Below, piece by piece: positions 2 to 40,023 of a stretch of 40,673 bases of DNA. The translations under genes and the position numbers were made by a program. Source of the stretch: Naegleria gruberi (lineage: Eukaryota). Numbering within the stretch: position 1 is the stretch's first letter; each line of letters opens with the position of its first letter. The stretch is taken from NCBI GenBank assembly GCA_000004985.1, contig GG738955.1; one strand, 5' to 3'. A model generated the notes under the pieces. It saw only the letters and a program-made list of their open reading frames with translations, was not told the DNA's origin and did no database searches.

Positions 2-1141
2 CGAGCAGTGAAGAGAAATGGCGAAGTTTTTCATCACATTGATGAAGAACTTAAAAGAAATGAAGCATTTGTATTGGATTGTGTTAAAGAAAATGGTTGG
101 ATTCTGACGCATGTTTCACAAGAATTGAAAAACAATAGAGATTTCATTAAGAGAGCTGTCAAATATTATGGAAGAGCTGTTACATTTACAAATGAAGAGC
201 TGAGAAATGACAAGTCAATCGTGTTGGATGCAGTTCGGCAAGATGGTTATGTTCTCAGATATTTATCAAATTTAATGCAAAATGACAGGGAGGTAGTTTT
301 GGAATCTGTCAAACAAAATGGAATAGCACTCCAATTTGCATCATTCAAATTGAGAAATGACAAGGAGGTTGTTTCTGAGGCTGTGAAACAAAAACCCTCA
401 TCTCTTGAATATGCATCATTTGATCTAAGACACGATCGTGAATTGATTGATTTAGCTTTAGCAATACAACCAATAGTTATATGGGATCAACCAAAAACCT
501 TCAATAATTTCAATACTTTGGCAAGTGATAATCAATTCAGAGTATCATTTTTTGACGAGATGAACGAGAATGATATTGAACTTATGGAACTAATGATGGA
601 TATCTCTCTATCTTCAGTCACTGATGAACAAAAGGATGATCGATTCACAATTCTACAAGCTGTCAAAAAGGAAGGACATTACTTAATGTTTGCTTCTGAC
701 AGATTGAAGAATGACAAAGAGATTGTACTAGAGGCAGTTAAACAAAATCCATGGGCATTTAAATATGCATCTGTAGCCCTTCAGAAAGACAATGAAATTA
801 TTTTGGAAGCTCTCAAAAAGAATGGCAGTTTGTTAAAATTCTGTTCCTTTGAAGTGAGGAATGATAAGGAATTGGTAATGGTGGCTGTAAAACAGGATGG
901 CTCTGCTCTCAAATATGCATCAGATAGGTTGAAAGTTGATAAGAAAATAGTATTGGAAGCTCTGAAACAAACTGACAAGGCACTAGAATTTGCAAACATT
1001 CAAGACTTGCTGAAGAATGACTTTGAATTCAAGATGGAATTGGTACGGGAAGTTGGATATTCAGAAGTCTATTCAGATGATTTCTACCTGATAAGAATGA
1101 ATTATTTAGGAGTTTATGCTGATAGAATTTCTAAACTTTAA
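2..1141 (+). CDS. DUF4116-like repeat protein, 5' partial. The frame is open from the window edge and there is no in-frame ATG near the start; the track's Met at 8 is GTG. Stop is TAA at 1139-1141.
   Basis: 380 codons with no stop in AT-rich DNA. The protein is built of ~36-aa units of the form [FY]AS..L[RK]ND[KR]E[IV]VLEAVKQ[ND]G.AL.[FY]AS, for example ELRNDKSIVLDAVRQDGYVLRY and FASDRLKNDKEIVLEAVKQNPWAFKYAS. I recognise these as Pfam DUF4116-type repeats. That identification is from memory, not a search. Confidence 0.7.
   Translation, partial: RAVKRNGEVFHHIDEELKRNEAFVLDCVKENGWILTHVSQELKNNRDFIKRAVKYYGRAVTFTNEELRNDKSIVLDAVRQDGYVLRYLSNLMQNDREVVLESVKQNGIALQFASFKLRNDKEVVSEAVKQKPSSLEYASFDLRHDRELIDLALAIQPIVIWDQPKTFNNFNTLASDNQFRVSFFDEMNENDIELMELMMDISLSSVTDEQKDDRFTILQAVKKEGHYLMFASDRLKNDKEIVLEAVKQNPWAFKYASVALQKDNEIILEALKKNGSLLKFCSFEVRNDKELVMVAVKQDGSALKYASDRLKVDKKIVLEALKQTDKALEFANIQDLLKNDFEFKMELVREVGYSEVYSDDFYLIRMNYLGVYADRISKL
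35..1030 (+). repeat. Two blocks of about five tandem 108-nt (36-aa) DUF4116-like coding repeats, at roughly 35-500 and 653-1030, separated by a non-repeat linker.
   Basis: Periodic recurrence of the ASxxLRNDKExVLxAVKQxG motif in the translation. The DNA-level copies are divergent. Confidence 0.55.
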
Positions 1142-1251: not shown

Positions 1252-4205
1252 NNNNNNNNNNNNNNNNNNNNNNNNNNNNNNNNNNNNNNNNNNNNNNNNN
1301 NNNNNNNNNNNNNNNNNNNNNNNNNNNNNNNNNNNNNNNNNNNNNNNNNNNNNNNNNNNNNNNNNNNNNNNNNNNNNNNNNNNNNNNNNNNNNNNNNNNN
1401 NNNNNNNNNNNNNNNNNNNNNNNNNNNNNNNNNNNNNNNNNNNNNNNNNNNNNNNNNNNNNNNNNNNNNNNNNNNNNNNNNNNNNNNNNNNNNNNNNNNN
1501 NNNNNNNNNNNNNNNNNNNNNNNNNNNNNNNNNNNNNNNNNNNNNNNNNNNNNNNNNNNNNNNNNNNNNNNNNNNNNNNNNNNNNNNNNNNNNNNNNNNN
1601 NNNNNNNNNNNNNNNNNNNNNNNNNNNNNNNNNNNNNNNNNNNNNNNNNNNNNNNNNNNNNNNNNNNNNNNNNNNNNNNNNNNNNNNNNNNNNNNNNNNN
1701 NNNNNNNNNNNNNNNNNNNNNNNNNNNNNNNNNNNNNNNNNNNNNNNNNNNNNNNNNNNNNNNNNNNNNNNNNNNNNNNNNNNNNNNNNNNNNNNNNNNN
1801 NNNNNNNNNNNNNNNNNNNNNNNNNNNNNNNNNNNNNNNNNNNNNNNNNNNNNNNNNNNNNNNNNNNNNNNNNNNNNNNNNNNNNNNNNNNNNNNNNNNN
1901 NNNNNNNNNNNNNNNNNNNNNNNNNNNNNNNNNNNNNNNNNNNNNNNNNNNNNNNNNNNNNNNNNNNNNNNNNNNNNNNNNNNNNNNNNNNNNNNNNNNN
2001 NNNNNNNNNNNNNNNNNNNNNNNNNNNNNNNNNNNNNNNNNNNNNNNNNNNNNNNNNNNNNNNNNNNNNNNNNNNNNNNNNNNNNNNNNNNNNNNNNNNN
2101 NNNNNNNNNNNNNNNNNNNNNNNNNNNNNNNNNNNNNNNNNNNNNNNNNNNNNNNNNNNNNNNNNNNNNNNNNNNNNNNNNNNNNNNNNNNNNNNNNNNN
2201 NNNNNNNNNNNNNNNNNNNNNNNNNNNNNNNNNNNNNNNNNNNNNNNNNNNNNNNNNNNNNNNNNNNNNNNNNNNNNNNNNNNNNNNNNNNNNNNNNNNN
2301 NNNNNNNNNNNNNNNNNNNNNNNNNNNNNNNNNNNNNNNNNNNNNNNNNNNNNNNNNNNNNNNNNNNNNNNNNNNNNNNNNNNNNNNNNNNNNNNNNNNN
2401 NNNNNNNNNNNNNNNNNNNNNNNNNNNNNNNNNNNNNNNNNNNNNNNNNNNNNNNNNNNNNNNNNNNNNNNNNNNNNNNNNNNNNNNNNNNNNNNNNNNN
2501 NNNNNNNNNNNNNNNNNNNNNNNNNNNNNNNNNNNNNNNNNNNNNNNNNNNNNNNNNNNNNNNNNNNNNNNNNNNNNNNNNNNNNNNNNNNNNNNNNNNN
2601 NNNNNNNNNNNNNNNNNNNNNNNNNNNNNNNNNNNNNNNNNNNNNNNNNNNNNNNNNNNNNNNNNNNNNNNNNNNNNNNNNNNNNNNNNNNNNNNNNNNN
2701 NNNNNNNNNNNNNNNNNNNNNNNNNNNNNNNNNNNNNNNNNNNNNNNNNNNNNNNNNNNNNNNNNNNNNNNNNNNNNNNNNNNNNNNNNNNNNNNNNNNN
2801 NNNNNNNNNNNNNNNNNNNNNNNNNNNNNNNNNNNNNNNNNNNNNNNNNNNNNNNNNNNNNNNNNNNNNNNNNNNNNNNNNNNNNNNNNNNNNNNNNNNN
2901 NNNNNNNNNNNNNNNNNNNNNNNNNNNNNNNNNNNNNNNNNNNNNNNNNNNNNNNNNNNNNNNNNNNNNNNNNNNNNNNNNNNNNNNNNNNNNNNNNNNN
3001 NNNNNNNNNNNNNNNNNNNNNNNNNNNNNNNNNNNNNNNNNNNNNNNNNNNNNNNNNNNNNNNNNNNNNNNNNNNNNNNNNNNNNNNNNNNNNNNNNNNN
3101 NNNNNNNNNNNNNNNNNNNNNNNNNNNNNNNNNNNNNNNNNNNNNNNNNNNNNNNNNNNNNNNNNNNNNNNNNNNNNNNNNNNNNNNNNNNNNNNNNNNN
3201 NNNNNNNNNNNNNNNNNNNNNNNNNNNNNNNNNNNNNNNNNNNNNNNNNNNNNNNNNNNNNNNNNNNNNNNNNNNNNNNNNNNNNNNNNNNNNNNNNNNN
3301 NNNNNNNNNNNNNNNNNNNNNNNNNNNNNNNNNNNNNNNNNNNNNNNNNNNNNNNNNNNNNNNNNNNNNNNNNNNNNNNNNNNNNNNNNNNNNNNNNNNN
3401 NNNNNNNNNNNNNNNNNNNNNNNNNNNNNNNNNNNNNNNNNNNNNNNNNNNNNNNNNNNNNNNNNNNNNNNNNNNNNNNNNNNNNNNNNNNNNNNNNNNN
3501 NNNNNNNNNNNNNNNNNNNNNNNNNNNNNNNNNNNNNNNNNNNNNNNNNNNNNNNNNNNNNNNNNNNNNNNNNNNNNNNNNNNNNNNNNNNNNNNNNNNN
3601 NNNNNNNNNNNNNNNNNNNNNNNNNNNNNNNNNNNNNNNNNNNNNNNNNNNNNNNNNNNNNNNNNNNNNNNNNNNNNNNNNNNNNNNNNNNNNNNNNNNN
3701 NNNNNNNNNNNNNNNNNNNNNNNNNNNNNNNNNNNNNNNNNNNNNNNNNNNNNNNNNNNNNNNNNNNNNNNNNNNNNNNNNNNNNNNNNNNNNNNNNNNN
3801 NNNNNNNNNNNNNNNNNNNNNNNNNNNNNNNNNNNNNNNNNNNNNNNNNNNNNNNNNNNNNNNNNNNNNNNNNNNNNNNNNNNNNNNNNNNNNNNNNNNN
3901 NNNNNNNNNNNNNNNNNNNNNNNNNNNNNNNNNNNNNNNNNNNNNNNNNNNNNNNNNNNNNNNNNNNNNNNNNNNNNNNNNNNNNNNNNNNNNNNNNNNN
4001 NNNNNNNNNNNNNNNNNNNNNNNNNNNNNNNNNNNNNNNNNNNNNNNNNNNNNNNNNNNNNNNNNNNNNNNNNNNNNNNNNNNNNNNNNNNNNNNNNNNN
4101 NNNNNNNNNNNNNNNNNNNNNNNNNNNNNNNNNNNNNNNNNNNNNNNNNNNNNNNNNNNNNNNNNNNNNNNNNNNNNNNNNNNNNNNNNNNNNNNNNNNN
4201 NNNNN
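1252..4205. other. Assembly gap (2954 N).
   Basis: Uninterrupted n run. The giant ORFs spanning it in the track are artefacts of translating N. Confidence 0.95.
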
Positions 4206-4212
4206 TTGCTGA

Positions 4213-5613
4213 TACAATAATCATCGAATTCGTAAAATATTGTCAAATGGCACAATTATAACGATTGCAGGTGGTACAAGTGGATATAGAGGTGATAACA
4301 TGGAAGCAACGAGTGCCAAGCTTAATGGTCCTTATTTTGTTTCGGTTCGTTCTGCCACTGGAGAGGTGCTCATTTCAGATACTGGAAATAATTACTTACG
4401 ACTAATTTCCACAACTCGTCTATGCAATGGAATATTAGCTAGTGATCCATTAGTTTGCAGTGGACATGGAATATGTAATTCTACAGATGTTTGCTCCTGT
4501 GAATCAGGTTATATTGGCTCAGTATGTGAGACTGTTGCATGTAATGGTGTCAATGCAAGTGATCCAAGAGCTTGTAATGGTCATGGTGTATGTCAAGGAC
4601 CAAACATTTGTAATTGTACCTCTGATTATAATGGAACATTTTGTGAGACAGCCTTAAATTCAGCACCTGAACCAGTCATTACCTGTTATGGTATTACATT
4701 TAATGAGACTTTGGTTTGTTCTGGTAATGGCCAATGTTCATCAATGAACAATTGTTCATGTAGCAGTGGATGGTTCGGTTCAAATTGTTCCACCACAATG
4801 TGTTTTGATGTATTTTCAAATAGTACCGATCCAATGGTTTGTAATGGCCACGGAGTTTGCTCTACTTTCAATAATTGCACTTGTGAGAATAATTGGAGTG
4901 GTTTGAATTGTTCCCTATTTTACAACAATTCTGAAATCATTATTTCAGTAACAAATTCTTCAACTGTTAATAGTTCAATCTATTCCAATACCACTACTAC
5001 TAACAATTCTACCATTATTGACAACAATAATACTACAACAATTGTTTCAAACACTACTACTGATAATACTACTATTGTAAATAATAGTACTGCTACAAAT
5101 AATACTACTGTTAATAATAATACTACAATAGTTGTTTCAAACAACACTACCATAATTGATAATACTACTCTAGTTAATAATGGAACAACTTTAAATTCCA
5201 CTATTTCTCAAAATAATACAACCAATACGAATTTGACAAATACAAACAATAATGGTACAATTACAATAGACCAATTGAAATGTTTTGGTATTCCTAATAC
5301 AGATGGCACAACTGTTTGTGGAGGACATGGTACATGTGTTTCACTTGATAAATGTGAATGCAAGTCAAATGCCAACGATGGATATTGGACAGGAGCTAAT
5401 TGTACATCATGTTCATCTTCTTACACTGGTAATGATTGCAAAACTGCCTTAATATGTGATAATTGTAACAATAATTATTATGCCTTCTTTGCGTTTATGG
5501 CAATTCCAGTCGCTGTAGTTGTGTCAATTCCACCTGTATGGTTGGTTGTGAGAGCACTACTTTCCATTAGAAAGAGTGGTACTGCTGCAACAAACACTCC
5601 TAATAATTGTTGA
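4213..5613 (+). CDS. 3' portion of a large type-I membrane glycoprotein. Domain order is NHL-type beta-propeller repeat(s), then four tenascin-type EGF-like modules, then an N/T-rich stalk, then a fifth Cys-rich module, then a TM helix and a short tail. Stop is TGA at 5611-5613. The 5' end lies in the upstream gap.
   Basis: Continuous 467-codon frame. 'YNNHRIRKI LSNGTIITIAGGTSGYRGDNMEATSAKLNGPYFVSVRSATGEVLISDTGNNYLRLIS' matches the NHL-type repeat consensus (G.AG.G..G..GD...AT.A.L..P.GVA.D..G.LYI.DT.N.RIR.I). Four repeats follow of the form C.GHG.C....C.C..G[YW].G..C, for example CSGHGICNSTDVCSCESGYIGSVCE and CNGHGVCSTFNNCTCENNWSGLNC. There are many N-x-T/S sequons. The hydrophobic stretch AFFAFMAIPVAVVVSIPPVWLVVRALL sits at about 5470-5555 and is followed by SIRKSGTAATNTPNNC. 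There is an in-frame TGA at 4210-4212 immediately after the gap, but the repeat motif 'ADT' continues in the -1 frame, so the gene very likely extends upstream. Confidence 0.7.
   Translation, partial: YNNHRIRKILSNGTIITIAGGTSGYRGDNMEATSAKLNGPYFVSVRSATGEVLISDTGNNYLRLISTTRLCNGILASDPLVCSGHGICNSTDVCSCESGYIGSVCETVACNGVNASDPRACNGHGVCQGPNICNCTSDYNGTFCETALNSAPEPVITCYGITFNETLVCSGNGQCSSMNNCSCSSGWFGSNCSTTMCFDVFSNSTDPMVCNGHGVCSTFNNCTCENNWSGLNCSLFYNNSEIIISVTNSSTVNSSIYSNTTTTNNSTIIDNNNTTTIVSNTTTDNTTIVNNSTATNNTTVNNNTTIVVSNNTTIIDNTTLVNNGTTLNSTISQNNTTNTNLTNTNNNGTITIDQLKCFGIPNTDGTTVCGGHGTCVSLDKCECKSNANDGYWTGANCTSCSSSYTGNDCKTALICDNCNNNYYAFFAFMAIPVAVVVSIPPVWLVVRALLSIRKSGTAATNTPNNC
4975..5250 (+). repeat. Low-complexity (AAT/ACT/ACA)n codon repeat encoding the Asn/Thr-rich stalk (NNTTIVSNTTTDNTTIVNNSTATNNTT...).
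   Basis: Visible microsatellite-like reiteration of aat, act and aca triplets. It is in frame with the surrounding CDS, and its complement yields the spurious V/L-rich ORF 4980-5201. Confidence 0.6.
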
Positions 5614-5628
5614 TTGAAATGAAACATG

Positions 5629-5634
5629 AATAAA
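5629..5634 (+). promoter_or_regulatory. AATAAA hexamer 16 nt downstream of the TGA stop of the NHL/EGF gene. Candidate poly(A) signal.
   Basis: Exact aataaa at 5629-5634. AATAAA is frequent by chance in AT-rich DNA. Confidence 0.25.
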
Positions 5635-5830: not shown

Positions 5831-6026
5831 ATGCAGGTAGCTCCTACACGAAACTTCACCCAATTCATTCCCATAGAATTTGCAAACAATAAACAAGTGG
5901 TTTTGGAATGTGTTTCTAGAAAAGGAAATTTCCTCAGGTTTGCATCTGATAATCTAAAATCTGATCCTCACGTAGTTTTGGAGGCATTGGCACAAAACGA
6001 AACTGCTTTCGAAAGGGCTAACCCAG
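5831..6026 (+). CDS. N-terminus of a second DUF4116-like repeat protein, paralogous to the gene at 2-1141. It is 3' truncated by the gap at 6027.
   Basis: ATG at 5831 preceded by seven A (tcaaaaaaaATG). The translation 'FANNKQVVLECVSRKGNFLRFASDNLKSDPHVVLEALAQNETAF' carries the same repeat signature. Post-gap sequence up to 6196 looks non-coding. Confidence 0.55.
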
Positions 6027-6076: not shown

Positions 6077-6230
6077 AATTTTTCAAAAAAAATACCTCAA
6101 CATACTAGTAAGTCGTATCAGTTATCAATTATATTACATCATTTCAATTCGTTTACAAGACATATCAATTCAAATTTTTATTTCACGTTTTTATAAGAAA
6201 CTCTTGTCAATTTCCTTGTCATCTTTGATG

Positions 6231-6304
6231 GTGTGAAATCTTTTACAATATTAATTCACACGGTGTGAATCTTTCACAGCATTGAGTTTCACTCAGTGTG
6301 AAAT
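6231..6304. promoter_or_regulatory. Cluster of GTGTGAA(A)T / TTTCAC motifs in both orientations. It includes a 17-bp palindrome, attcacac-g-gtgtgaat, at 6254-6270.
   Basis: gtgtgaaat at 6231-6239, gtgtgaat at 6263-6270, gtgtgaaat at 6296-6304, and tttcac at 6272 and 6287. I checked the palindrome by reverse complement. Confidence 0.35.
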
Positions 6305-6392
6305 GGTTCAAGATGAAAGATTTCCAACTTGTAAGAATTATGAATAGTTCAATAAAATTTCAATTTATCAAAAATTAATAATCATTCTGCAA

Positions 6393-6615
6393 CGTCATTG
6401 GAGACACTTTTTGAGACGTCATTGAGGACGCTTTTTTTGACGTCTTAATGACTCTCAAATTGACACCGTCAAAATGACGAAAAAAAACGTCATTTTGACG
6501 TCCACAACACCGTCCCAATGACACCTTAACAAGCATAAACAAAGGCGTCATTCATGACTATAAAATCGTCAAAACATGCGTCAACAAAAATGAGCGGGAG
6601 GTTGACTTTTGACGA
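6393..6615. promoter_or_regulatory. Degenerate ~24-bp-period array of CGTCA/TGACG dyad elements. Seven units start at 6393, 6417, 6441, 6467, 6488, 6511 and 6546 (spacings 24, 24, 26, 21, 23 and 35 bp), and an eighth (6567) is fragmentary. Candidate bZIP-type binding-site array or minisatellite.
   Basis: At least 11 TGACG/CGTCA pentamers in about 220 bp, three GACGTC hexamers (6416, 6439, 6497), and perfect-arm dyads 'cgtca-aaa-tgacg' (6467-6479) and 'acgtca-ttt-tgacgt' (6487-6501). A TATAAAT lies just downstream at 6654-6660, but no convincing ORF follows it. Confidence 0.45.
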
Positions 6616-12124: not shown

Positions 12125-12985
12125 TTAATGACAAGTTGGTTTGGCATTCCAGTAGAATAAATCTTTGGAAAATACATTAGCAGAATCATCCTTATCACTA
12201 AAGAATTGGAAATTCAATACATCCCAAGAAGTAATTCCCTTAAAACCTCCCAAATCTTTCATTTCAAATCTTACTGGTTGTCCTGTCTTGGCATCTTCAT
12301 AATAAGTCATGTCAACATAGGTAGGTCCTTGATAATTGAACAAGTAAAATCCAAGACCAATAGCAAGATCAGACTTTCCATCCAAATTATAGACATTACA
12401 AACTCTCTTTTGCATTCCATTAATCAAATTGGATGGTTCAAGAATAGCATTACTTTGAATCAATTTAGCTCCAGAATATTTGGCAACAGTGAATCCTCCT
12501 TCAGCCACAGTACCCTTTCCACTGAATGGGAAAACTCTAGCTCCATAAGCAGTAGAATTAGGATGCAAATGTTCAAAGATACAAAAATCAACACTCACAA
12601 CATTCATATAATATCTCAAAATTTCAAACAAAACTGATGTGGAAGAGAGTTGAGCTGCAGGGCCTCCCAAACCAGCTCCATCCATTCTCATTCTCTGATG
12701 AATTCCATCATAGAATAATGAAATAAATTTTGGATTATTATCAGTATCTGTTTGATTATTTGCTGAACGGAATCCAAATAATTGGAAAACATTGGTCCAA
12801 ACTCCATCTTGAACACTTCCGATTTTTGTACTTCCTTTATAATTTTGATTATTTTGAGTTCGGGAAATCATATTCTTGAAGAGTTTGGTCTTGGCTGTTT
12901 CTTGTCCCATGACCAACATCATGGTCATGATGAGAGTGAAGGCGAACAAAATAACCACCCGTCTGAGCTTTCCGTGTTGATGCAT
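12125..12985 (-). CDS. Secreted or signal-anchored protein of unrecognised family (286 aa).
   Basis: ATG (reverse complement of cat at 12983-12985) preceded by seven A on the coding strand. The N-terminus MHQHGKLRR + VVILFAFTLIMTMMLVMG has the n-region and h-region of a signal peptide. The reading frame is clean, the stop is TAA, and a TTTATT (AATAAA on the coding strand) lies about 8 nt past the stop at about 12113-12118. The antisense ORFs 12206-12637 and 12782-13024 are spurious. Confidence 0.65.
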   Translation of the reverse strand: MHQHGKLRRVVILFAFTLIMTMMLVMGQETAKTKLFKNMISRTQNNQNYKGSTKIGSVQDGVWTNVFQLFGFRSANNQTDTDNNPKFISLFYDGIHQRMRMDGAGLGGPAAQLSSTSVLFEILRYYMNVVSVDFCIFEHLHPNSTAYGARVFPFSGKGTVAEGGFTVAKYSGAKLIQSNAILEPSNLINGMQKRVCNVYNLDGKSDLAIGLGFYLFNYQGPTYVDMTYYEDAKTGQPVRFEMKDLGGFKGITSWDVLNFQFFSDKDDSANVFSKDLFYWNAKPTCH

Positions 12986-28889: not shown

Positions 28890-29902
28890 TTAGAGTTCAA
28901 AATCGTATTTGTAAATGCTTTCAATTTCCTTCCAACGCTTTTCTTCAATTTCCAAGTCCTTAATGAGACCAGTTTCAATATCACACAACCAACCATGGAC
29001 GTGTAATGTTCTTCCCTTGGCCCAAGCATTTTGTACAACACTAGTCTTACAGAGATTGAGAGTTTGTTCAATAATATTGAGTTCAATCATACGGTGGATC
29101 TTTTTATCCTTATCCTCAATGGCATCAACTTCTGCCTTGTGGAGACGATAAACATCCTTAATATTTCTCAACCAGTGGTCAATTAAACCCAAATGCTTAT
29201 TTGTCAAAGCAGCCATAACACCACCACAACGAGTGTGGCCCATAACAATGACGTGTTTAACTTGCAAAACTTCAACAGCATATTGTAAAACTGACATGGC
29301 ATTAACATCAGTATTGACAACCAAGTTGGCAACATTTCTGTGAATGAAAATTTGACCTGGTTGGGTCTTGGTCAATTGATCAGGAGGTACACGACTATCA
29401 CTGCAACCAATTAACATGTAATCTGGTTTTTGAACATCCTTGATTCTATTGAAAAAGTCAGGATCAGAACCCAACTTGTCTGAAACAAATTCCTTATTGT
29501 TATTCAACAACTTTTCATAACTTTGTTGAGCAACAAGTTCTTCTTCAGTGAATTCTTCTTCGAATTGAATAGGTACATTAATACCAGCTGGTTTCTTTTG
29601 TAATAAACCTTCAATGGTGTAAGAAACATTAGGATCTGATGGTTCTGGACGAGAGAGATTTTGATTATTAGCAGCACTAAGTTGACTATAATCAATTTGA
29701 TGGGAACAACCTGCTTCACCCAATGATGAAGTAGATGATTTCTTCTTAATACTAATACCAGAGACTTTCTTCTTTGTGTTATGAGAGGATCCCGAATTGA
29801 ATTCTGATTCATCACCAGAAAGAGTATTTGGTGATACATCATTAACAGTCAAGTGTTGTGCTTGTTGATGATTTCCACCACAACATTGGCCATTATGTTC
29901 GT
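28890..29902 (-). CDS. Beta-class carbonic anhydrase with an N-terminal S/N/K-rich low-complexity extension of at least 150 aa. It is 5' partial: the frame is open into the gap and there is no ATG before it. Stop is TAA.
   Basis: Hallmark beta-CA zinc-site motifs are present. CSDSR (C-x-D-x-R) is at about 29405 downward, HTRCGG (H-x-x-C) is at about 29237, and the conserved Q.PG..F..RNVANLV stretch lies between them. The catalytic domain spans about 29450-28893. The track's 'M' at 29852 is TTG. The upstream in-frame codons (EHNGQCCGGNHQQAQHL) continue to 29902. Confidence 0.85.
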
Positions 29903-39627: not shown

Positions 39628-40023
39628 CAGACAAATCTTTTTACAATGAACTATGCCATCAATGATTTTTCAAGTTTGAAATATTTAGTTGAGCATNTGA
39701 TGTGGGAATGCACTCTTGGTGCTCCTACCGCTACATTTGTTGTTGTTTCCACAAAGAACGATCTCAAAGATTCACTCTACTGGAATAGTTTGTTTTATTC
39801 TACTACTGTTGATGAACCAATTTCAAAAGAGGAAGGAATTGAATTTACAAAAGCAATAGGAGCTGTCTCGTTTATTGAAACAAGTGCAAAAACAGGCGAA
39901 GGAACAATTGATTTCGATAAGAGACTTGGATTATTGACACATACTCATTTGCACATTTTGGAAAACCCACAAAAAATTGAAACAAACAAGAACCACAAGG
40001 AGAAGAAATGTACTGTTCAGTAG
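39628..40023 (+). CDS. C-terminal half of a Ras-family small GTPase with a polybasic stretch plus CAAX box (KEKKCTVQ-stop). It is 5' partial, running out of the gap. Stop is TAG.
   Basis: G4 motif 'VVVSTKND' (NKxD variant) at 39751-39762. G5 'SFIETSAKTGEGTIDF' at about 39871-39915 closely matches the Ras consensus 'IETSAKT'. The C-terminal Cys-Thr-Val-Gln at 40009-40020 is a CAAX prenylation motif. Confidence 0.75.
   Translation, partial: QTNLFTMNYAINDFSSLKYLVEHXMWECTLGAPTATFVVVSTKNDLKDSLYWNSLFYSTTVDEPISKEEGIEFTKAIGAVSFIETSAKTGEGTIDFDKRLGLLTHTHLHILENPQKIETNKNHKEKKCTVQ

What the first reader, a model, noticed from the sequence alone, without database searches (positions are those of the whole stretch)
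4206..5613. NHL-repeat + tenascin-type EGF + N/T-rich stalk + TM protein, with an apparent frame disruption at the gap edge
The architecture is unusual for a protist surface protein: NHL-type beta-propeller blades, then 4+1 CxGHGxC…CxCxxG[YW]xGxxC modules, then a roughly 115-aa Asn/Thr stalk with dozens of N-glycosylation sequons, then a TM anchor. It resembles teneurin/tenascin building blocks in a different order. The five bases after the gap read gct-gat-aca (A-D-T, the canonical tail of an NHL blade) in the -1 frame relative to the main ORF. The main frame then begins TGA-Y-N-N-H-R-I-R-K-I, the canonical start of the next blade segment. A single missing base at about 4216, or a few bases of poor sequence at the gap edge, would join them. 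The gene therefore almost certainly continues upstream into the 2954-nt gap, and the in-frame TGA at 4210 is probably an artefact.
Basis: partly seen in the sequence, partly recalled or inferred. Interest (0 to 1): 0.5.

Follow-up and report, generated by a model that had tools for sequence, protein, structure and literature searches.

The report
Gap-truncated Naegleria NHL–EGF membrane glycoprotein gene
This is the intact 3′ two-thirds of an apparently unannotated Naegleria gruberi gene for a surface glycoprotein (propeller head, EGF rod, sugar-coated stalk, membrane anchor); its start is lost in an assembly gap, and the architecture recurs in Naegleria rather than being unusual.

Summary
Bases 4213-5613 (+) are one 466-codon ORF. 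It encodes the last blade of an NHL β-propeller, four teneurin-type six-Cys EGF modules and a 116-aa Asn/Thr stalk (25 of the protein's 38 sequons). A fifth EGF module with a Cys-rich extension, a TM helix and a 13-aa tail follow. The window is a complete 40,673-bp, 75%-N scaffold of Naegleria gruberi NEG-M. It is apparently a second assembled copy of part of a 326,815-bp scaffold.

The ORF starts mid-blade with no Met or signal peptide, so the gene must continue into the 2,954-N gap. Restoring one A in the run at 4216-4217 turns TGA-Y-N-N-H into ADTNNHRIRKI, a string also found in N. gruberi paralogs. A sequencing error there is likely but unproven. A GGA→TGA substitution or a real mutation remains possible.

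The "unusual architecture" claim fails. N. gruberi has annotated NHL+EGF+TM paralogs (closest NAEGRDRAFT_74100, 59% identity), and N. lovaniensis and N. fowleri have relatives. It is not a teneurin or a tenascin, because domain order and topology differ and no YD, FN3 or fibrinogen domain was found. Likely role: adhesion or recognition receptor (inferred). Verdict: new, apparently unannotated member of a known but uncharacterised family; low-to-moderate interest.

The parts
1252..4205 (.). Assembly gap (2,954 N) that must hold the 5′ part of the gene: promoter, start codon, signal peptide and NHL blades 1-5 (possibly a second propeller).
   Evidence: The gaps look real in the deposited scaffold: the β-carbonic-anhydrase gene reads cleanly to the gap edge at 29900 and lacks only its first ~12 codons, and its annotated model (P0223) is truncated. 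Full-length relatives have 290-610 aa before the equivalent position.
4206..4212 (+). First bases after the gap, with the in-frame TGA at 4210-4212.
   Evidence: There is no AG dinucleotide between 4206 and 4267, so splicing cannot remove the stop.
4208..4216 (+). GCT GAT ACA = A-D-T in the +1 frame, the canonical end of an NHL blade. The putative one-base loss lies in the A-run at 4216-4217 (ACAAT instead of ACAAAT).
   Evidence: 'ADT' occurs at 1e-4 per position in this scaffold's own sequence.
4213..4416 (+). Last NHL blade plus the closing strand (residues 1-68: YNNHRIRKILSNGTIITIAGG...GEVLISDTGNNYLRLIS).
   Evidence: It aligns to the sixth blade of P0001 and to positions 283-357 of the 357-position TEN_NHL profile.
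4423..4911 (+). Four six-cysteine teneurin-type EGF modules (4423-4527, 4540-4644, 4684-4788, 4801-4911), with a 13-aa linker between modules 2 and 3.
   Evidence: AlphaFold2 pLDDT is 72-89. Foldseek matches tandem EGF arrays of integrin β, Delta and Jagged.
4924..5271 (+). Asn/Thr-rich low-complexity stalk, 116 aa, 59% N+T, 25 N-x-S/T sequon starts, with imperfect 15-24-nt tandem repeats.
   Evidence: pLDDT is below 30, i.e. predicted disordered.
5281..5466 (+). Membrane-proximal fifth EGF module (5281-5403) with a C-x2-C-x8-C-x5-C-x2-C extension (5410-5466). The module ...GYWxGxNCxxCxxxYxGxDC is shared with N. gruberi paralog NAEGRDRAFT_82303.
   Evidence: 48% identity over 46 aa; pLDDT 54-70.
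5473..5571 (+). Single transmembrane helix (residues ~421-453).
   Evidence: Kyte-Doolittle 19-residue windows of 1.7-2.3 occur only here. AlphaFold2 helix 422-454, pLDDT 76-80.
5572..5613 (+). Short basic cytosolic tail (RKSGTAATNTPNNC) and the TGA stop at 5611-5613.
5629..5634 (+). AATAAA, a polyadenylation-signal-like hexamer 16 nt after the stop.

Best explanation
Bases 4213-5613 are the intact 3′ two-thirds of a genuine Naegleria gruberi gene for a type I single-pass membrane glycoprotein. The missing part lies in the scaffold gap: signal peptide plus NHL blades 1-5, about 300 aa or more if there are two propellers. The mature protein would carry a six-bladed NHL β-propeller as its distal binding head. 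Four rigid EGF modules and a heavily N-glycosylated, disordered Asn/Thr stalk hold the head away from the membrane. A fifth Cys-rich EGF module sits next to the membrane, followed by one TM helix and a 13-residue tail with no recognisable signalling motif. It most likely acts as a cell-surface adhesion or recognition receptor for substrate, prey or other cells, and would signal only through partners.

The TGA at 4210 with ADT in the +1 frame reflects a one-base defect within the first ten bases of a 1.8-kb sequence island. The most likely cause is loss of one A from AAA (ACAAAT read as ACAAT), i.e. a base-calling or assembly error.

Shown: ORF integrity, domain content, homology, organism, and gene truncation by a gap. 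Inferred: topology, glycosylation, function, and that the defect is an artefact.
For: The ORF has 466 open codons in a 34% GC sequence, while the other forward frames carry 19 and 64 stops. All 30 EGF cysteines are in register. Pfam EGF_Teneurin and EGF_2 score far above their cut-offs.

The N-terminal 68 aa align to the terminal blade of NHL+EGF proteins. NHL reaches its Pfam cut-off only when ADT is restored.

Full-length relatives have a signal peptide, six NHL repeats, EGF modules, a TM helix and a short tail (P0002, P0011). The AlphaFold2 model of P0011 has 24 strands, i.e. six 4-stranded blades, at pLDDT 85-97. Its best structural matches are bacterial TLP 9IFO (46% identity), teneurins, SOQ1, NHLRC2 and TRIM2 NHL domains.

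The window ORF begins mid-blade with no Met or signal peptide. There is no AG acceptor before 4268. ADTNNH[RK]I occurs in paralogs P0245 and P0003, and D and R are invariant columns.

The scaffold is built of 1-1.8-kb islands, and single-N ambiguities lie 71-81 nt inside two other island left edges. N. lovaniensis has the same order, DUF4116 gene then NHL-EGF gene.
Against: No read-level data or second copy of this locus could be retrieved, so artefact and real mutation cannot be separated. Another gap edge in the same scaffold (29900) is error-free, so gap edges are not uniformly poor.

The closest paralog has a non-canonical junction (ENGFSNHRIRKI). That fits the main frame if TGA were GGA.

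No expression evidence was examined. No identical or near-identical protein model was found, so the gene has no independent annotation support. Function rests on architecture only.
Confidence: 0.75

Rival explanations
1. The frame disruption is real. This copy is a pseudogene or a null allele carried on a minor (haplotype or redundant) scaffold, while an intact allele sits elsewhere in the genome.
For: The scaffold duplicates part of a 326,815-bp scaffold, with small allelic differences. The β-carbonic anhydrase shows a 2-aa indel against P0102 and matches P0222. The dirigent-like protein is 286 aa here and 284 aa there. No gene model was found for this ORF. The gap edge at 29900 is clean.
Against: The 466 downstream codons are intact, with every structural cysteine, the TM helix and a poly(A)-like signal preserved. 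That is not expected for an old pseudogene. The defect lies within 10 nt of an island edge.
Confidence: 0.15
2. The defect is a substitution, not an indel. The main frame continues upstream and TGA 4210-4212 is a miscalled or mutated GGA (Gly), giving ...C-G-Y-N-N-H-R-I-R-K-I, like the closest paralog's ...N-G-F-S-N-H-R-I-R-K-I. The ADT in the +1 frame would then be coincidence.
For: NAEGRDRAFT_74100 is the nearest relative at 59% identity overall, with higher identity by eye over the first ~150 aligned residues. It has G-F-S-N-H-R-I-R-K-I at exactly these positions, with no Asp five residues before the Arg.
Against: 'ADT' arises by chance at ~1e-4 per position in this scaffold, and a relaxed [ASGTVC]-D-x pattern at 6e-3. 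All 13 other aligned family members have the canonical Asp. ADTNNH is an exact string in two N. gruberi paralogs.
Confidence: 0.1
3. The TGA is the true stop of a separate upstream gene, and an independent short gene starts downstream (first in-frame ATG at 4303, Met31).
For: Only the mechanical presence of a stop and a downstream in-frame ATG.
Against: Residues 1-30, upstream of that ATG, are conserved NHL sequence; NHRIRKILSNGTIIT recurs almost unchanged in paralogs. A product starting at Met31 would lack a signal peptide and begin inside a β-blade. An upstream gene ending in ...C* in this frame has no support.
Confidence: 0.03
4. The N-runs are masking applied to the window rather than true gaps, so the 'gap edge' has no bearing on sequence quality.
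For: 75% N is extreme. The tool notes say some collections carry masked stretches.
Against: The public record has the same length, 40,673. The annotated β-CA model on this scaffold is truncated to 175 aa, as expected if the annotators also saw a gap. A 50-N run and single Ns are typical assembly features.
Confidence: 0.03

Closest known systems
Naegleria NHL-EGF(-REJ)-TM paralog family: N. gruberi NAEGRDRAFT_74100 (XP_002670944.1), NAEGRDRAFT_72780, NAEGRDRAFT_82303; N. lovaniensis C9374_011613; N. fowleri FDP41_010761 and FDP41_006543. All are annotated only as predicted, hypothetical or EGF-like domain-containing proteins.
   Same: NHL propeller directly followed by teneurin-type EGF modules. 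The junction is near-identical (ISDTGNN[YF]LRL[IV]STTRLCNG.LASDP.VCSGHGIC), with 59% identity over 236 aa to NAEGRDRAFT_74100. The N. gruberi paralogs and FDP41_006543 also have a C-terminal single TM and short tail; the C9374_011613 model has none. The window shares the GYWxGxNC..C module with NAEGRDRAFT_82303. A DUF4116 gene lies upstream in N. lovaniensis as well.
   Different: The window protein has only 4+1 EGF modules and no REJ domain, which NAEGRDRAFT_74100 has at 75 bits. Instead it has a 116-aa Asn/Thr stalk that none of the 13 aligned relatives has. Its 5′ end is missing and no gene model was found.
Teneurins (metazoan and choanoflagellate) and bacterial teneurin-like proteins (BiTLP, PDB 9IFO/9PT5; PMC13018210)
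   Same: The best-scoring Pfam models are EGF_Teneurin and TEN_NHL. The NHL blade matches BiTLP at E = 5.6e-18 and the EGF region matches teneurin-3 EGFs. The propeller of homolog P0011 superposes on BiTLP (46% identity, rmsd 3.2 Å) and on teneurin-2/3/4.
   Different: Teneurins are type II proteins ordered ICD-TM-EGF×8-Cys-rich-TTR-FN-plug-NHL-YD shell-Tox-GHH (PMC13018210, PMC3278476). Here the order is NHL→EGF→TM with the anchor at the C-terminus. No YD/RHS, TTR or toxin domain was detected in the window ORF or in the relatives scanned.
Tenascins
   Same: Tandem six-Cys EGF modules of the compact C-x-G-H-G-x-C type.
   Different: No FN3 repeats, fibrinogen globe or assembly domain. Pfam EGF_Tenascin (PF18720) did not hit. 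Tenascins are secreted matrix proteins, not membrane-anchored.
Mucin-like stalked type I adhesion receptors (general class)
   Same: A globular head and rigid repeats carried on a low-complexity, densely glycosylatable stalk, with a single TM and a short tail.
   Different: The stalk is Asn/Thr-rich with N-x-S/T sequons rather than Ser/Thr/Pro-rich. Glycosylation is not shown.

Membership tests
NHL-repeat β-propeller (Pfam PF01436; TEN_NHL PF25021) | Repeat signature (...G.[LIV][YF][IV][AS]D..N.R[IV]...) scoring above the family threshold | tested here: inconclusive
   PF01436 scores 14.6 bits as found and 20.9 bits with ADT restored (cut-off 20). TEN_NHL scores 17.9-18.5 bits (cut-off 27.1), matching profile positions 283-357 of 357. 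There was no hit when the whole ORF was scanned. Only about one blade is visible.
NHL-repeat β-propeller (Pfam PF01436; TEN_NHL PF25021) | Homology to proteins with a demonstrable six-bladed NHL propeller | tested here: met
   Residues 1-68 align to the last blade of P0001, P0238 and P0011. The P0011 model has six 4-stranded blades at pLDDT 85-97 and matches solved NHL propellers. PDB sequence hit to the 9IFO NHL domain at E = 5.6e-18.
NHL-repeat β-propeller (Pfam PF01436; TEN_NHL PF25021) | Six blades closing into a propeller in this protein itself | not testable with these tools
   Blades 1-5 would lie in the N-run 1252-4205.
Teneurin-type EGF / EGF_2 (PF23106, PF07974) | Six-cysteine EGF pattern, above Pfam gathering scores, in tandem | tested here: met
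   85.2 bits (cut-off 24.3) and 75.2 bits (cut-off 22.1), five stretches each. Regex finds five modules with all cysteines. EGF1-4 pLDDT 72-89. Fold matches to EGF arrays.
Teneurin (protein family) | Type II topology with EGF repeats N-terminal to the NHL domain | tested here: not met
   NHL precedes the EGFs, and the only TM segment is C-terminal.
Teneurin (protein family) | YD/RHS shell, FN-plug, TTR and C-terminal toxin-like domain | tested here: not met
   No such Pfam hits in the ORF or in the relatives scanned: P0001 and P0011, P0238, P0265 and P0245. In teneurins these domains follow the NHL domain, where this protein has EGFs, a stalk and a TM helix.
Tenascin | EGF repeats followed by FN3 repeats and a fibrinogen-like globe | tested here: not met
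   No FN3, fibrinogen or EGF_Tenascin hits.
Naegleria NHL-EGF-TM paralog family | Conserved NHL→EGF junction and high identity to annotated N. gruberi members | tested here: met
   59% identity over 236 aa to NAEGRDRAFT_74100, E = 7e-88. The hit spans query residues 1-148 across the junction.
Naegleria NHL-EGF-TM paralog family | C-terminal single TM helix with a short cytosolic tail | tested here: met
   The same layout is seen in P0238, P0245, P0265, P0002, P0010 and P0011.
Naegleria NHL-EGF-TM paralog family | REJ domain between the EGFs and the TM (present in NAEGRDRAFT_74100) | tested here: not met
   REJ scores 75 bits in P0238 and is absent from the window ORF. The feature is not universal in the family: no REJ hit in P0265 or P0245.
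N-glycosylated stalk glycoprotein | High density of N-x-S/T sequons in an extracellular, disordered segment | tested here: met
   25 sequon starts in 116 aa; pLDDT below 30.
N-glycosylated stalk glycoprotein | Actual glycan occupancy and extracellular orientation | not testable with these tools
   Needs the signal peptide (in the gap) and glycoproteomics.

The most novel reading that the evidence does not exclude
Heteroloboseans independently built stalked adhesion receptors from the same two module types that later made teneurins. One is a bacterial-type NHL propeller: 46% identity between an environmental homolog (P0011) and Bacillus TLP, and 50-60% identity between single blades and bacterial proteins. 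The other is the compact teneurin-type EGF. This would be a lineage-specific, diversifying family (NHL-EGF with a REJ domain or an N/T stalk), possibly used to recognise bacterial prey. The window copy would be an unannotated short-stalk variant. It would be a second, independent case of the bacterial NHL + eukaryotic EGF fusion invoked for teneurin origins.
Probability: 0.2. Interest if true: 0.5.

Novelty: new member of a known kind. Interest (0 to 1): 0.22.

Why it matters
The practical value is mainly in annotation. A real gene for a surface protein of more than 466 aa in the N. gruberi reference appears to have no gene model, because it straddles a scaffold gap and carries a one-base defect at the island edge. 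The scaffold is a low-coverage, apparently redundant copy of a larger one.

Biologically, the finding points to an uncharacterised Naegleria family of NHL-propeller/EGF single-pass membrane proteins. These are candidates for adhesion or prey and host recognition in free-living and pathogenic Naegleria. They offer a useful comparison for the modular origin of teneurins. None of this changes current understanding unless function or a horizontal origin is demonstrated.

Tried and rejected
1. Word-index protein searches gave at best 39-41% identity over the NHL+EGF region (up to 62% over a single blade). At first they suggested that N. gruberi has no NHL+EGF paralog. The exhaustive HMMER search showed this was a search artefact: closer N. 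gruberi paralogs exist.

2. I tried to fetch N. gruberi DNA for the allelic 326,815-bp scaffold, or for the paralog NAEGRDRAFT_74100, to close the gap or compare the junction at nucleotide level. The look-ups for P0102, P0238 and the 286-aa ORF all returned 'not on record'. No eukaryotic DNA collection is searchable, so the metagenome, genome and viral scans were not used.

3. Exact look-up of three possible gene models for the ORF (starts at 4213, 4240 and 4303) found none in the collection.

4. An intron explanation was rejected: there is no AG between 4206 and 4267, and the conserved sequence starts at 4213.

5. Stop-codon reassignment or readthrough was rejected: the gene itself ends on TGA at 5611, and the ADT evidence points to a frame shift.

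The exact ORF was used instead.

7. Literature searches for Naegleria with NHL/EGF, teneurin or REJ found nothing relevant. The N. gruberi genome paper was not among the listed hits of the title search.

8. Laminin-type EGF assignment for module 5 was considered from the 8-Cys spacing. It is not claimed, because Pfam Laminin_EGF did not hit.
Full report
**What is in the sequence**

The window is 75% N. Eight N-runs separate islands of about 1-1.8 kb with GC near 0.33. After the 2,954-N run (1252-4205) the sequence reads ttgctgatacaataatcatcgaattcgtaaaata.

In the main frame this is TGC TGA TAC AAT AAT CAT CGA ATT CGT AAA ATA, i.e. C * Y N N H R I R K I. The frame then stays open for 466 codons to TGA 5611-5613. 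The other two forward frames contain 64 and 19 stops. The +1 frame begins GCT GAT ACA, i.e. A D T. An AATAAA lies 16 nt after the stop.

**Domain content**

- **EGF modules.** Pfam gives EGF_Teneurin (85.2 bits, cut-off 24.3) and EGF_2 (75.2 bits, cut-off 22.1), each in five stretches. A pattern scan finds five six-cysteine modules at 4423-4527, 4540-4644, 4684-4788, 4801-4911 and 5281-5403.
- **Stalk.** Between modules 4 and 5 lies a 116-aa segment (4924-5271) with 35 Thr and 33 Asn. It holds 25 of the ORF's 38 N-x-S/T sequon starts, and its DNA shows imperfect 15-24-nt tandem repeats.
- **Membrane anchor.** The only hydrophobic stretch is residues ~421-453, followed by RKSGTAATNTPNNC.
- **AlphaFold2 model of the exact ORF** (14-sequence alignment). 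EGF1-4 have pLDDT 72-89, the stalk is below 30, EGF5 is 54-70, and a helix spans 422-454. Foldseek hits are tandem EGF arrays.
- **NHL.** The call is weak on Pfam alone. The whole ORF gives no hit. The first 70 aa alone score 14.6 bits, rising to 20.9 bits (cut-off 20) when ADT is joined. Homology secures it. Residues 1-68 align with the last blade of NHL+EGF proteins. They also match the NHL domain of the Bacillus inaquosorum teneurin-like protein 9IFO/9PT5 at E about 6e-18 (PMC13018210).

**Organism and nature of the gap**

- The β-carbonic-anhydrase ORF at 28890-29852 (−) is 100% identical to N. gruberi XP_002669707.1.
- A cluster mate, XP_002668776.1, lies on a record of exactly 40,673 bp, the window length.
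- The 286-aa ORF at 12125-12985 (−) is exactly XP_002668775.1, on the same 40,673-bp record.

The window is therefore a complete small scaffold of N. gruberi NEG-M. Both genes have near-identical copies on a 326,815-bp scaffold, and the carbonic anhydrase has a third copy on a 44,269-bp scaffold, each with small indels. This scaffold thus looks like a low-coverage allelic or redundant copy.

The gaps look real in the deposited assembly. The carbonic-anhydrase reading frame runs cleanly to the gap edge at 29900 and lacks only its first ~12 codons. Its annotated model here is truncated to 175 aa.

**Does the gene continue into the gap?**

Yes, with high confidence.

- The ORF begins in the middle of a β-blade, with no Met and no signal peptide.
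- Full-length relatives (P0002, P0011) have a signal peptide, six NHL repeats, EGF modules, a TM helix and a tail.
- The P0011 model shows 24 strands, i.e. six blades, at pLDDT 85-97. Its best structural matches are solved NHL propellers.
- Relatives have 290-610 residues before the equivalent position. A 2,954-nt gap can hold that together with an intergenic spacer.
- Splicing cannot rescue the frame, because there is no AG between 4206 and 4267.

**The frame defect**

Adding one A to the run at 4216-4217 (ACAAT to ACAAAT) yields ADTNNHRIRKI.

- In a 14-member alignment, the D and the first R fall on invariant columns.
- ADTNNH[RK]I is an exact string in N. gruberi paralogs NAEGRDRAFT_82303 and NAEGRDRAFT_62247.
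- By chance, 'ADT' occurs at about 1e-4 per position in this scaffold.

Two caveats remain.

1. The closest paralog, NAEGRDRAFT_74100, reads ENGFSNHRIRKI here. A GGA→TGA substitution in the main frame is conceivable.
2. No tool available here can tell a base-calling error from a real mutation on this copy.

Single-N ambiguities 71-81 nt inside two other island edges hint at poor edge quality. The clean edge at 29900 shows that this is not universal.

**Comparison with known families**

The exhaustive HMMER search found 29,182 cluster representatives at E ≤ 1e-3. Hits that span the NHL-EGF junction include the following.

| Protein | Length | Domains |
|---|---|---|
| N. gruberi NAEGRDRAFT_74100 | 1,514 aa | NHL + ~10 EGF + REJ + TM; 59% identity over 236 aa |
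| N. gruberi NAEGRDRAFT_72780 | 1,219 aa | ~12 NHL + EGF + TM |
| N. gruberi NAEGRDRAFT_82303 | 2,254 aa | signal peptide + NHL + ~35 EGF + TM |
| N. fowleri FDP41_010761 | 1,309 aa | named 'EGF-like domain-containing protein'; domains not scanned |

Earlier searches had found N. lovaniensis C9374_011613 and N. fowleri FDP41_006543. In N. lovaniensis the homolog sits directly downstream of a DUF4116 gene, as in the window, although that DUF4116 similarity is only 27%.

The architecture is thus a recurrent Naegleria theme, not an oddity. What is particular to this copy is the Asn/Thr stalk, which none of the 13 aligned relatives has, standing where NAEGRDRAFT_74100 has a REJ domain.

It is not a teneurin. 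The topology and domain order are reversed, and there is no YD shell, TTR, FN-plug or toxin domain (PMC13018210, PMC3278476). It is not a tenascin either, having no FN3 repeats or fibrinogen globe. No paper in the searchable library discusses these Naegleria proteins.

**Mechanism (inferred)**

This would be a type I surface glycoprotein. The NHL propeller head is presented on an EGF rod and a glycosylated stalk, anchored by one helix with a minimal tail. That is the layout of an adhesion or recognition receptor that relies on partners for signalling. Glycosylation, topology and ligand are not shown.

**Verdict**

This is a new, apparently unannotated member of a known but uncharacterised family. 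No identical model was found. Interest is low to moderate.

Noticed in passing
window 1-40673: The window is an entire 40,673-bp N. gruberi NEG-M scaffold made of about nine 1-1.8-kb islands separated by large gaps (75% N). It carries copies of at least two genes also found on a 326,815-bp scaffold (β-carbonic anhydrase and the dirigent-like protein), and the carbonic anhydrase has a third copy on a 44,269-bp scaffold, each with small indels. It is probably an allelic or redundant scaffold.
   Followed up: partly
window 6393-6614: Dense cluster of CGTCA/TGACG (CRE-like) motifs on both strands. 11 of the 14 occurrences in the whole window fall in these 222 nt (6.6 expected window-wide; none of 100 shuffles reached 14). 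All three GACGTC palindromes lie here as well. The region is intergenic, downstream of the truncated DUF4116 gene. Nearby, 6230-6305 has three GTGTGAA(A)T repeats.
   Followed up: partly
window 8-1141 (+) and 5831-6026 (+): DUF4116-repeat genes flank the NHL-EGF gene on both sides (335 bits with 8 repeats, and 71 bits). The first runs off the scaffold start and the second is cut by a 50-N gap. The same order, DUF4116 then NHL-EGF, occurs in N. lovaniensis (L001 3494-5755 and 6001-8178), followed there by a second EGF/NHL gene of 1,004 aa.
   Followed up: partly
window 28890-29900 (-): The annotated β-carbonic-anhydrase model on this scaffold (XP_002668776.1, 175 aa) starts at an internal Met. 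The reading frame actually continues in frame for a further ~160 codons to the gap edge (EHNGQCCGGNHQQAQHLTVNDV...), matching the N-terminal region of the copies on the other scaffolds. The model is therefore under-called.
   Followed up: yes
window 12125-12985 (-): A complete 286-aa ORF with a signal-peptide-like N-terminus is exactly XP_002668775.1 (NAEGRDRAFT_82316). UniProt names its allele on the large scaffold 'Dirigent protein'.
   Followed up: partly
window 39698-40023 (+): C-terminal part of a small-GTPase-like ORF (...VVVSTKNDLKD...SAKTGEG...), cut by the 3,774-N gap. A single N sits at 39697, 71 nt inside the island.
   Followed up: no
L002 (Logan SRR28285696) and L003 (JGI 3300057245): The best full-length environmental homologs (P0011, P0002: signal peptide, six NHL, EGFs, TM) sit on compact 6-kb contigs. 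They are encoded without introns: P0011 and P0002 each translate directly from the DNA. Neighbours are a DNA primase small subunit, an EamA transporter and an E2 ubiquitin-conjugating enzyme. The source organism (protist or giant virus) is unknown.
   Followed up: no
method note (vs 57): The word-index protein search missed the closest relative (NAEGRDRAFT_74100, 59% identity with long exact matches). Only the exhaustive HMMER search found it. Conclusions of the type 'no close homolog' drawn from the indexed search alone would have been wrong here.
   Followed up: yes
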